A program made the position numbers and the translations under genes. The notes beneath the pieces were generated by a model, which was not told the origin of the DNA, did no database searches, and saw nothing but the letters and a program-made list of their open reading frames with translations. Shown here piece by piece: positions 174 through 1,343 of a stretch of 1,343 bases of DNA; the first letter of the stretch is position 1; every line of letters starts with the position of its first letter. Source of the DNA: Escherichia coli (lineage in GTDB: Bacteria; Pseudomonadota; Gammaproteobacteria; Enterobacterales; Enterobacteriaceae); assembly GCF_003334405.1 (NCBI RefSeq), contig NZ_QOWM01000045.1, one strand, 5' to 3'.

Positions 174-1286
174 TTAGTTCTTCTTTTCGGATCCGGCACT
201 TCTGGGGGGGAAATCCAGCGATGGCTGGATTATGTCGTCAATTAAAAATGCGGCGAGTAGATTAGCAAATATCCACGCTTTCGCGAGTTCAGGTTCCTTT
301 GCACGCAAAGCATCCAGGTGCAGCAAACTTTTGAGCCGCTTAAAAGCCAGTTCAATTTGCCATCGCAGACGGTAACAATCAGCCACTTGCTCTGCTGAAT
401 ATTCATCTTCCGGTAATGATGTTAGCAATAGCACATGGCCCGCTGCTTCCAGCGTTTCCGCCTGAACTACTCGTCCTTTTCGACGATTCTCGCTGAGCAG
501 TCGGGTTTTACTGATTAATGCTTTTTCGGGAGGAAGTGATACGGCAATGAGACGTGCCGGAAAGGGAGCTCCGGCTTTTTTATTACCTGAATTGCCTATC
601 ATTACAGTGGTTTCACCGTTCTTACCGCAATCCAGCCCGCGCAGAAAACCCATCATGTCAAAGCGCATTCCTTCTGCAGTTAACCAGCGCAATCCTCGCC
701 AGTGAACCCGGACGATATAATCAGCTTCTCCAAAAGCAAGTGAGCGGATACATTCGGGACGCGAACCGAATCCCCGGTCAGCAATGCGTATCTCGTCTGC
801 CGTTTGCGCAAATCGGTCCAGCCGTTCAGCGTCTCTGCTGTCGGTTAGCTCAAAATCAGTGAACTGACAGGTATGAGGATCATATCCCATATGTAGTCGC
901 CATTCAGCGCTGCCGCCCCCGGGCGCACTGATTGCTGTTCCATCGACAAGACGCAATCTCTTTCCGCTTGTACAACCCGTAACTGCGGCGCGTACAGCAA
1001 GTGTTTGTGCGGCAAGTATGCCAAACCAGTCGGCGGCATTCCGCAGCCGCTTCAGGAGAGCCACGTCAGATAATGTTGCAACGTCATGGAGCTGAGCCCA
1101 TGCAGTGACTTCACGTAATGACATCCCCCCGGGGCCGTAAGCCAGCCCCAGACGTAGCAGAGTTGCAGCATCACGAATTTCGCGGCGGCGGGTTAGAGCC
1201 CCGGCATTACGTGCCGAAGTATCCAGTTCTTCGGGCTTACCAATATGGGCCAGAATTGCTGACCAGTTATCGTGAGAGTAATTCAT
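174..1286 (-). CDS. insL: IS186-type DDE transposase (IS4 family), 370 aa, apparently intact
   Basis: Seen in sequence: uninterrupted minus-strand ORF with ATG at 1286-1284 and TAA stop at 176-174. The track ORF (174-1292) begins two codons earlier at an in-frame GTG (1292-1290). The product from the ATG starts MNYSHDNWSAILAHIGKPEEL, which I recall as E. coli IS186 InsL. Candidate catalytic residues by analogy with IS10/Tn5 (transposase numbering): D115 in LVDGT (codon 944-942), D170 in IADRGFG (779-777), E312 in YRLRWQIELAFKRLK (353-351). The Y-(2)-R-(3)-E-(6)-K signature spans 374-339. The N-terminal third is basic (TRRREIRD...MSLREVTAWAQL), consistent with a DNA-binding region. Confidence 0.93.
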   Translation of the reverse strand: MNYSHDNWSAILAHIGKPEELDTSARNAGALTRRREIRDAATLLRLGLAYGPGGMSLREVTAWAQLHDVATLSDVALLKRLRNAADWFGILAAQTLAVRAAVTGCTSGKRLRLVDGTAISAPGGGSAEWRLHMGYDPHTCQFTDFELTDSRDAERLDRFAQTADEIRIADRGFGSRPECIRSLAFGEADYIVRVHWRGLRWLTAEGMRFDMMGFLRGLDCGKNGETTVMIGNSGNKKAGAPFPARLIAVSLPPEKALISKTRLLSENRRKGRVVQAETLEAAGHVLLLTSLPEDEYSAEQVADCYRLRWQIELAFKRLKSLLHLDALRAKEPELAKAWIFANLLAAFLIDDIIQPSLDFPPRSAGSEKKN

Positions 1287-1318
1287 CGGCACGTTAAATC
1301 ATATCAGGCGTAATACCA

Positions 1319-1343
1319 CAACCCTTAAGTTAGCGCTTATGGG
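1319..1343. repeat. Terminal inverted repeat (end proximal to the transposase start)
   Basis: Bases 1319-1343 (caacccttaagttagcgcttatggg) are the perfect reverse complement of 1-25. The transposase ATG lies 57 bp inside this end, so any native promoter or 5' UTR must overlap or abut this repeat. Confidence 0.9.

What the first reader, a model, noticed from the sequence alone, without database searches (positions are those of the whole stretch)
1284..1343. Transposase start has no obvious Shine-Dalgarno sequence and only weak promoter-like hexamers; start codon is ambiguous
Upstream of the ATG (1286-1284) the minus strand reads ...GGTATTACGCCTGATATGATTTAACGTGCCG-ATG, with no GGAGG-like motif at -6 to -12. 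The best -10-like hexamer is TATGAT (1303-1298) with no convincing -35, and an in-frame GTG lies two codons upstream (1292-1290). This fits the generally low transposase expression of IS elements and suggests expression may depend on read-through from outside or on transposase occupancy of the adjacent repeat.
Basis: partly seen in the sequence, partly recalled or inferred. Interest (0 to 1): 0.25.

Follow-up and report, generated by a model that had tools for sequence, protein, structure and literature searches.

The report
Leaderless transposase mRNA of IS186
The IS186 transposase gene has no ribosome-binding site because published start-site maps show its mRNA begins on the A of the ATG (a leaderless mRNA, rare in E. 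coli), which settles the start codon and shows the element has its own promoter.

Summary
The window is a complete IS186, 100% identical to IS186A of E. coli K-12 MG1655. In detail: no Shine-Dalgarno (anti-SD duplex +0.6 kcal/mol), an in-frame GTG two codons upstream of the ATG, a TATGAT hexamer and no good -35.

Published Cappable-seq and SMRT-Cappable-seq maps place a primary 5' end at MG1655 15445. This is window 1286, the A of the ATG, so the mRNA is leaderless. The GTG lies upstream of the transcript and is absent from all 12 relatives.

Relatives of 42-88% protein identity keep a nearly invariant block, TGATTYAAC, exactly 6 nt before the ATG. That is -15..-7 of the mapped start, with TG in the extended -10 position. 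TTG lies at -35..-33 inside the inverted repeat, and the DNA between varies freely. A 45% relative instead has TTGACG-17-TACGAT-7-ATG. Outgroups with the same repeat core have long leaders with GGAGG.

Read-through transcripts exist, but they carry an internal, SD-less AUG. Expression is autonomous but unconventional.

Unresolved: the hexamer TTTAAC lacks A-11 and T-7, and I obtained no direct translation data.

The parts
1319..1343 (-). Left terminal inverted repeat (IRL) of IS186, 25 bp
   Evidence: Perfect inverted repeat with 1-25. The window equals IS186A of MG1655. The core GCGCTAACTTAAG is conserved in all relatives.
1316..1321 (-). -35-like hexamer TTGTGG (-35..-30 of the mapped TSS); its TTG is the last 3 bp of the IR
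   Evidence: It lies a 17-bp spacer upstream of the hexamer at -12..-7. TT at -35/-34 is kept in 10 of 11 relatives and G at -33 in 7 of 11. Inference: transposase bound at the IR would occlude it.
1293..1301 (-). Conserved block TGATTTAAC at -15..-7 of the mapped TSS: TG in the extended -10 position plus hexamer TTTAAC
   Evidence: Mean 1.66 bits per position across 11 non-redundant relatives, against 0.56 in the spacer and 0.64 at -6..-1. It lies exactly 6 nt before the ATG in all 12 block-bearing elements (11 with the TGATTYA core intact; L004 has TGGTTTAAC) and is absent from all 10 right ends examined.
1299..1301 (-). TGA inside the block: an in-frame stop five codons upstream of the ATG
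   Evidence: The ORF listing opens only after this stop. The fixed spacing makes it in-frame wherever the TGA is kept (11 of the 12 block-bearing elements). Inference: it blocks translational read-in from outside.
1298..1306 (-).
   Evidence: TATGAT ends 12 nt before the mapped start, outside the usual 6-10 nt range (established knowledge). TATGAT/TATGGT is kept only in the enterobacterial-type relatives.
1290..1292 (-). In-frame GTG, not a functional start
   Evidence: It lies upstream of the mapped TSS and is absent from all 12 relatives, e.g. GTT in the 88% relative L002.
1286..1286 (-). Transcription start site, which is the A of the start codon
   Evidence: Cappable-seq TSS at U00096.2:15445 (score 10.0, log2 enrichment 4.15) and at 607288 for the second copy. 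SMRT-Cappable-seq lists unit 'b0016 15444' in 0-based coordinates. The mapping to window 1286 was computed.
1284..1286 (-). ATG start codon of insL
   Evidence: RefSeq CDS start. All 21 homologues aligned start at the equivalent Met, and an ATG sits at this position in all 13 loci read.
174..1286 (-). insL transposase CDS (370 aa, DDE_Tnp_1)
   Evidence: (PF01609).
1209..1217 (-). Downstream arm (UCGGCACGU, codons 24-26) of a 9-bp stem with -8..+1 (1294-1286). The stem could form only in read-through transcripts.
   Evidence: (I3) and 56: -17.1 kcal/mol, matched by 2% of shuffles. P(unpaired) of A+1 falls from 1.0 to 0.1. The stem is not conserved in relatives, so it is probably incidental.

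Best explanation
The region 1284-1343 is the left end of IS186, and it holds the element's own transposase promoter. Transcription starts on the A of the ATG (window 1286), so the insL mRNA is leaderless. That is why there is no Shine-Dalgarno sequence and why the upstream GTG is irrelevant. The promoter lies entirely within the 57 nt between the IR tip and the ATG. It has a -35-like TTG at the inner edge of the IR, a freely variable 17-bp spacer, and a conserved block TGATTYAAC at -15..-7 with TG in the extended -10 position. The ribosome would then have to recognise the 5'-terminal AUG directly, the known leaderless pathway, which in E. coli needs AUG. Shown here or in published data: the TSS position, the absence of an SD, the conservation and fixed spacing of the block, and the existence of read-through transcripts. 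Inferred: (1) the block is the -10 region; (2) transposase bound at the IR occludes the -35; (3) read-through transcripts are poorly translated, because the AUG is then internal, has no SD, and follows an in-frame TGA, so transposase synthesis is tied to the element's own promoter.
For: The window is 100% identical to the reverse complement of MG1655 15388-16730, and insL1 is 15445..16557. Cappable-seq (PMC4782308, Additional file 1) lists a + strand TSS at 15445 with score 10.0 and log2 enrichment 4.15. The second copy shows 607288, its ATG, with score 10.1. SMRT-Cappable-seq (PMC6131387) lists the single-gene unit 'b0016 15444' in 0-based coordinates. There is no SD. The block averages 1.66 bits per position against 0.56 in the spacer. 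It sits exactly 6 nt before the ATG in all 12 block-bearing elements even though IR tip-to-ATG varies from 57 to 59 nt, and it is absent from all 10 right ends. L134 (45% identity) has TTGACG-17-TACGAT-7 nt-ATG, a canonical promoter positioned for the same leaderless start. Outgroups with the same IR core have longer leaders of unmapped length (ATG 76-108 nt from the IR tip, against 57-59) with GGAGG/GGGAGG/GAGG. An ATG is the start in 13 of 13 elements, and homologue N-termini align at that Met. IS186 transposes actively from chromosomal copies (PMC5009759).
Against: The hexamer at -12..-7 (TTTAAC) lacks A-11 and T-7, the two bases normally essential for sigma70 promoters, so the register and mode of recognition are unresolved. 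G at -1 is conserved, although starts usually prefer a pyrimidine there. Both TSS maps come from the same laboratory and use the same capping chemistry. Reads inside the IS multi-map, as the near-equal scores of the two copies show, so the copies are not independent. Cappable-seq clusters starts within 5 nt, so a minor start at about -4 from TATGAT would be hidden. Kim 2012 lists only TSSs outside the IS for insL. I obtained no ribosome-profiling or N-terminal data, and a 2022 list of known E. coli leaderless genes omits insL.
Confidence: 0.78

Rival explanations
1. Near-leaderless variant. The extended -10 TGaTATGAT (1306-1298) is the real promoter. Transcription starts 7-8 nt downstream at G/T 1292-1290, giving a 4-6 nt leader, with SD-independent initiation at the ATG.
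For: TGnTATGAT is a much better sigma70 element than TTTAAC. TATGAT/TATGGT is kept in the enterobacterial-type relatives L002-L004. Cappable-seq merges starts within 5 nt, so a start at -4 could be hidden.
Against: Both maps report the strongest 5' end at the A of the ATG. The TG is present only in IS186 and L002. The nine more distant relatives lack a TAnnnT hexamer at that position but keep the downstream block and its spacing.
Confidence: 0.12
2. The element has no effective promoter, and transposase is made mainly from transcripts reading in from neighbouring genes.
For: Read-through units dnaK-dnaJ-insL1, dnaJ-insL1 and nupC-insL3 are present in SMRT-Cappable-seq. Kim 2012 assigns weak outside TSSs (14907 and 607179) to insL.
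Against: An internal TSS exists with a score comparable to many chromosomal promoters. On read-through RNA the AUG is internal, has no SD and is preceded by an in-frame TGA. The strict conservation of the block and of its distance to the ATG has no explanation under this model.
Confidence: 0.05
3. The conserved block is not a promoter element. It is either a protein-binding site (transposase subterminal site or host factor) or an unconventional ribosome-binding signal, since GUGAUU in relatives pairs with 16S rRNA 1530-1535.
For: The hexamer lacks A-11 and T-7. With the extended anti-SD GAUCACCUCCUUA, relatives give -6 to -16 kcal/mol. Alphaproteobacterial members carry GATTC, which is a GANTC (CcrM) site.
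Against: The block is absent from all 10 right ends, so it is not a symmetric transposase site. The pairing nucleotide is 15 nt from the AUG, far beyond functional SD spacing, and IS186 itself gives only -3.3 kcal/mol. The block lies upstream of the mapped TSS, so it is not in the RNA. E. coli has no CcrM, and IS186 has GATTT.
Confidence: 0.05

Closest known systems
Leaderless mRNAs of E. coli and its elements (lambda cI from PRM, Tn1721 tetR; chromosomal rhlB, rluC, racR, hprR, dicA, cohE)
   Same: The transcript starts on the A of an AUG, there is no SD, and the promoter -10 region lies immediately upstream of the start codon. This class is rare in E. coli: 0.4% of TSSs.
   Different: insL is not on the published list of known cases. 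The putative -10 is non-canonical. The arrangement is conserved across a whole IS clade, and the gene is present in multiple copies.
IS10/IS50 (IS4 family) control of transposase expression
   Same: A weak promoter lies close to the end of the element. The outcome may be similar, with transposase synthesis insulated from outside transcription.
   Different: IS10 and IS50 use leadered mRNAs, Dam GATC sites in the promoter, fold-back inhibition and, in IS10, antisense RNA-OUT (established knowledge). Here there is no GATC within 400 nt of the start and no conserved fold-back stem. I could not check for an antisense TSS.
IS promoters overlapping the terminal inverted repeat (IS1, IS2, IS30, IS911; IS481 Pin)
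   Same: The -35-like TTG lies inside the IR, so transposase binding could autoregulate. IS481 also has its promoter at the end of the element.
   Different: Those elements have conventional leaders with ribosome-binding sites. Autoregulation of IS186 has not been tested.
Extended -10 (TGn) sigma70 promoters
   Same: TG lies at -15/-14 relative to the mapped start, T is at -12, and the -35 is weak.
   Different: The hexamer TTTAAC lacks A-11 and T-7. From memory, the Caulobacter -10 consensus GCTANAWC also ends in AWC; this is a lead and was not tested.

Membership tests
IS186/IS421 (IS4 family insertion sequence) | Sequence identity to the reference element | tested here: met
   100% identical over 1343 bp to MG1655 IS186A. 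Matches at 99% identity or more are found in 2725 records.
IS186/IS421 (IS4 family insertion sequence) | Terminal inverted repeats flanking a single DDE transposase gene | tested here: met
   25-bp perfect IRs. A 370-aa ORF carrying PF01609 DDE_Tnp_1.
IS186/IS421 (IS4 family insertion sequence) | Insertion at GGGG(N6/7)CCCC targets | tested here: inconclusive
   The window has no flanks. The MG1655 copy and the relatives show GGGG 6-8 nt before the tip, matching PMC5009759.
Leaderless mRNA | Primary 5' end at the first base of the start codon, or within 5 nt of it | tested here: met
   Published Cappable-seq TSS at 15445 and 607288, and SMRT-Cappable-seq at 15444 (0-based), all mapping to window 1286.
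Leaderless mRNA | AUG start codon (required for leaderless translation in E. coli; established knowledge) | tested here: met
   ATG in IS186 and in all 12 relatives.
Leaderless mRNA | No SD is needed or present | tested here: met
   Anti-SD duplex +0.6 kcal/mol. Outgroups with leaders do have an SD.
Leaderless mRNA | Demonstrated translation from the 5'-terminal AUG (toeprint, 70S binding, reporter or N-terminus) | not testable with these tools
   Ribo-RET and Onc112 datasets are not held. The TetRP supplement has no insL entry.
sigma70 extended -10 promoter | TG at -15/-14 relative to the TSS | tested here: met
   T1301 and G1300 with +1 at 1286. Both are invariant in 11 of 11 relatives.
sigma70 extended -10 promoter | A -10 hexamer with A at -11 and T at -7 | tested here: not met
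   -12..-7 reads TTTAAC, or TTCAAC in relatives. The consensus scan finds no promoter.
IS10/IS50-type control | Dam GATC site in the transposase promoter or end | tested here: not met
   The only GATC sites are at 190 and 878.
IS10/IS50-type control | Fold-back structure that sequesters the start only in read-through RNA | tested here: inconclusive
   IS186 has a 9-bp stem (-17.1 kcal/mol, 2% of shuffles). It is lost in the 88% relative, and only 2 of 10 elements beat 95% of shuffles, at different positions.
IS10/IS50-type control | Antisense RNA from an outward promoter overlapping the 5' end | not tested
   The opposite-strand part of the Cappable-seq file is not held, because the file was cut when stored. 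There is no Rfam hit.

The most novel reading that the evidence does not exclude
The IS186 clade uses a conserved, non-canonical promoter block (TGATTYAAC, without A-11 or T-7) to start transcription exactly on the AUG. The leaderless design itself would act as the safeguard against activation by outside transcription. Only transcripts from the element's own, IR-overlapping and possibly self-repressed promoter carry a translatable 5'-terminal AUG. Read-through RNAs carry an internal, SD-less AUG behind an in-frame TGA. This would be a third solution to the problem that IS10 and IS50 solve with fold-back inhibition, and it would be conserved from alphaproteobacteria to E. coli.
Probability: 0.35. 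Interest if true: 0.6.

Novelty: new member of a known kind. Interest (0 to 1): 0.4.

Why it matters
IS186 is one of the four most active insertion sequences in E. coli K-12. It causes the classic lon-promoter insertion of B strains, yet how its transposase is expressed is not described in any paper I could search. Recognising insL as leaderless has four consequences. It fixes the start-codon annotation. It adds a multi-copy, evolutionarily conserved case to the very short list of natural E. coli leaderless mRNAs. It offers a simple, testable explanation for how the element avoids activation by read-through from neighbours such as dnaKJ and nupC. It also raises the question of how a promoter without A-11 and T-7 fires at the observed level.

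Tried and rejected
1. The consensus promoter scan found nothing anywhere in the element. Its rules require A at position 2 and T at position 6 of the -10.

2. TATGAT as the -10 for the mapped start: it lies at -17..-12, too far upstream.

3. SD-like pairing of GUGAUU with 16S 1530-1535: 15-nt spacing, only -3.3 kcal/mol in IS186, and upstream of the TSS.

4. Fold-back inhibition: not conserved. Whole-region folding is unremarkable, with z = -1.05 and -0.61.

5. Dam control: no GATC nearby.

6. Sigma-E, sigma-28 and sigma-54 readings, judged by eye. A GCCGATGA resemblance to the sigma-28 -10 is not conserved and is mispositioned. The AACTT in the IR is 29 nt from the TCAAC-like motif.

7. Symmetric transposase-binding site: absent from all 10 right ends. 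A one-mismatch copy at 30-22 points outward at the right end, but no TSS is listed at the position it predicts, and chance explains it.

8. No Rfam family matches.

9. Searches for further diversity added little. tblastn on plasmids returned almost only IS186 itself. Only 17 of 113 IR-core ends carried an InsL-like N-terminus.

10. Papers not held: Thomason 2015, Meydan 2019 and Weaver 2019. Conway 2014 has no supplement held. Nakahigashi 2016 has no insL entry.

11. No paper in the library mentions IS186 together with 'leaderless'.

Full report
WHAT THE WINDOW IS. The 1343-base window is a complete insertion sequence. It has perfect 25-bp terminal inverted repeats at 1-25 and 1319-1343 and one long minus-strand ORF. 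It is 100% identical to the reverse complement of E. coli K-12 MG1655 15388-16730, which is IS186A, whose transposase gene insL1 is annotated 15445..16557. Near-identical copies occur in 2221 of 5426 complete E. coli genomes. The finding (1284-1343) therefore covers the left end of IS186: the IR plus the 32 nt between the IR and the transposase start codon.

CHECK OF THE OBSERVATION. Every sequence statement is correct. The ATG is at 1286-1284, the in-frame GTG at 1292-1290 and TATGAT at 1303-1298. There is no Shine-Dalgarno: the best duplex of the 20 upstream nt with the anti-SD is +0.6 kcal/mol, and 91% of all 20-nt windows in the element pair at least as well. No usable -35 accompanies TATGAT (best 3/6, at a 19-bp spacer). 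A consensus promoter scan finds nothing in the element. Taken alone, none of these features is statistically unusual.

THE DECISIVE EVIDENCE: PUBLISHED START-SITE MAPS. The Cappable-seq TSS list for MG1655 (Ettwiller et al. 2016, PMC4782308, Additional file 1) contains a + strand TSS at U00096.2 position 15445. Its relative read score is 10.0 and its log2 enrichment over the uncapped control is 4.15. Position 15445 is the A of the insL1 ATG, which is window 1286.
- The second copy shows the same thing: TSS 607288 with score 10.1. This is the insL-2 start in U00096.2 coordinates and corresponds to 608065 in U00096.3.
- The near-equal scores, and an identical internal TSS at +414 in both copies, show that multi-mapping reads were shared among copies. 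The copies are therefore not independent replicates.
- SMRT-Cappable-seq (Yan et al. [quoted passage not shown] It lists a single-gene unit 'b0016 15444 forward'. Its coordinates are 0-based: neighbouring entries 8190, 9276, 12047, 12122, 17453 and 21382 match Cappable-seq 8191, 9277, 12048, 12123, 17454 and 21383. So this is again 15445.
- The insL mRNA therefore begins with its AUG and is leaderless. Ettwiller et al. state that only 0.4% of E. coli TSSs are of this kind.
[quoted passage not shown] No paper in the searchable library mentions IS186 together with 'leaderless'.

CONSEQUENCES FOR THE FINDING.
1. The missing SD is explained, because there is no leader to hold one.
2. The GTG at 1292-1290 lies upstream of the transcript and cannot be the start.
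3. Relative to +1 = 1286, TATGAT occupies -17..-12. It ends 12 nt before the start, outside the 6-10 nt range in which sigma70 holoenzyme selects starts (established knowledge). It is not the -10 for this transcript. A minor start near -4 cannot be excluded, because Cappable-seq merges starts within 5 nt.
4. The element has its own promoter, so expression does not depend on read-through.

COMPARATIVE EVIDENCE. I recovered the DNA of 12 relatives with 42-88% protein identity to InsL, mostly alphaproteobacterial or metagenomic.
- All have an ATG aligned with the IS186 ATG, and the N-termini of 21 homologues align at that Met.
- None has the GTG. The closest relative (L002, 88%) has GTT.
- The IR tip-to-ATG distance is 57-59 nt.
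- Aligned on the ATG, 11 non-redundant elements show a promoter-like footprint. T-15, G-14, T-12, T-11 and A-9 are invariant. A-13 and C-7 are kept in 10 of 11, and -10 is always C or T. Together these form the block TGATTYAAC.
- Mean information is 1.66 bits per position over the block, against 0.56 in the 17-bp spacer and 0.64 at -6..-1. The block is better conserved than the first codons of the gene.
- TT at -35/-34 is kept in 10 of 11 elements and G at -33 in 7 of 11. These three bases are the last 3 bp of the IR.
- The block is always exactly 6 nt from the ATG, whereas the indels fall between the IR and the block.
- The block is absent from all 10 right ends examined, which argues against a symmetric transposase-binding site.
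- One relative, L134 (45% identity), lacks the block. It has instead TTGACG-17 bp-TACGAT-7 nt-ATG, a near-consensus sigma70 promoter placed so that the A of the ATG is the expected start.
- More distant elements share the IR core but have ATGs 76-108 nt from the tip. They carry textbook SDs 5-8 nt upstream: GGAGG in L105/L106, GGGAGG in L101 and GAGG in L060.
- So the SD-less, fixed-distance arrangement is a derived and maintained property of the IS186 clade. It matches what a leaderless gene requires.

HOW IT MOST LIKELY WORKS. RNA polymerase binds a promoter contained in the first 57 nt of the element and starts on the A of the ATG. The promoter consists of TTG at -35..-33 inside the IR, a variable 17-bp spacer, TG at -15/-14 and the hexamer TTTAAC at -12..-7. 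Ribosomes must then recognise the 5'-terminal AUG directly. From established work on lambda cI and Tn1721 tetR, this leaderless pathway in E. coli requires AUG, which fits ATG in 13 of 13 elements. Three further steps are inference.
1. Because the -35-like TTG is part of the IR, bound transposase should occlude the promoter.
2. Read-through transcripts do exist: dnaK-dnaJ-insL1, dnaJ-insL1 and nupC-insL3, plus weak outside TSSs in Kim 2012. On them the AUG is internal, has no SD and is preceded by an in-frame TGA (window 1301-1299), which is part of the conserved block. They should therefore be poorly translated.
3. The leaderless design may thus itself insulate transposase synthesis from outside transcription.

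WHAT DOES NOT FIT.
- The hexamer at -12..-7 lacks A-11 and T-7, normally the two most important -10 bases. Even so, the TSS score of about 10 per copy is comparable to many chromosomal promoters in the same list.
- Alternative registers do not resolve this. TAACGT at -10..-5 has the TAnnnT form but leaves only a 4-nt discriminator, and it is not conserved. GATTTA at -14..-9 is no better.
- G at -1 is conserved in 10 of 11 elements, although starts usually prefer a pyrimidine there.
- Both TSS maps come from one laboratory and one capping chemistry.
- I could not obtain ribosome-profiling or N-terminal evidence. Several key papers are not held, and one start-site dataset has no insL entry.

ALTERNATIVES TESTED.
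- Fold-back sequestration of the IS10 type. IS186 has a 9-bp stem between -8..+1 and codons 24-26 that could form only in read-through RNA (-17.1 kcal/mol, matched by 2% of shuffles). It lowers P(unpaired) of the A from 1.0 to 0.1. It is lost in the 88% relative, and only 2 of 10 elements exceed 95% of shuffles, at different positions. Global folding is unremarkable.
- Dam control. There is no GATC within 400 nt of the start.
- An unconventional SD. GUGAUU in relatives pairs with 16S 1530-1535, at up to -16 kcal/mol in L009. The spacing is 15 nt, IS186 gives only -3.3 kcal/mol, and the motif lies upstream of the TSS.
- Known RNA families. None matches.

VERDICT. The feature is a leaderless transposase mRNA driven by a promoter in the IR-proximal 57 nt. 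It is a new, previously unremarked member of a known and, in E. coli, rare class. The supporting TSS data were already public. I score interest at 0.4. The specialist-level points of interest are the clade-wide conservation, the possible insulation role and the non-canonical -10.

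Noticed in passing
window 872 (minus strand): Cappable-seq lists an internal same-strand TSS in both mapped copies (15859 and 607702, scores 4.6-5.1). It is preceded by TATGAT plus 6 nt, a canonical -10 spacing. It could yield an N-terminally truncated InsL, similar in concept to the Tn5 inhibitor protein.
   Followed up: partly
window 252 and 233 (minus strand); extended -10 TGCTAATCT at 267-259: Two further same-strand Cappable-seq TSSs (16479 and 16498, scores 5.2 and 2.3) lie near the 3' end of insL and point out through the right IR. 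They may mark an outward promoter able to transcribe flanking DNA.
   Followed up: partly
window 1299-1301: The TGA inside the conserved block is an in-frame stop five codons before the ATG. It is kept in 11 of the 12 block-bearing elements because the spacing is fixed, and it would terminate translation reading in from outside.
   Followed up: partly
L005, L007-L011, L030, L135, L136, positions -14..-10: The non-enteric clade members (mostly alphaproteobacterial) carry GATTC inside the block, which is a GANTC (CcrM methylation) site. E. coli IS186 has GATTT. This may parallel Dam control of IS10 and IS50.
   Followed up: no
window 1302-1294: The enterobacterial-type members have a mini-ORF ATG-ATT-TAA (ATG-GTT-TAA in L004) ending 7 nt before the main ATG. 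It lies upstream of the mapped TSS, so it matters only for read-through RNA.
   Followed up: no
loci L014-L133: The IR core TANGCGCTAACTTAAG occurs in genomes from many phyla and in one archaeon (Methanocalculus). Only 17 of 113 ends carry an InsL-like N-terminus, so the core may be shared by a much wider group of IS4-type elements.
   Followed up: partly
window 22-30 (minus strand): A one-mismatch copy of the block (TGGTTCAAC) overlaps the inner edge of the right IR and points outward. No Cappable-seq TSS is listed at the position it predicts (about 16716), and 25 of 200 shuffles give at least 2 hits, so it is probably chance.
   Followed up: yes
right ends of relatives: The right subterminal regions share motifs of their own (CATCTGAAGAA / CATTTGCGG and GGCTCGTTGAGGCG) in the roughly 170 nt of non-coding DNA after the insL stop. 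Their function is unknown.
   Followed up: no
L012 and L013 (MG1655 contexts), L001, H16: Two of the three K-12 IS186 copies lie directly beside hok/sok-type toxin loci (mokC/hokC and hokE/sokE). The same adjacency appears in another chromosome (L001) and on a plasmid (H16, hokE).
   Followed up: no
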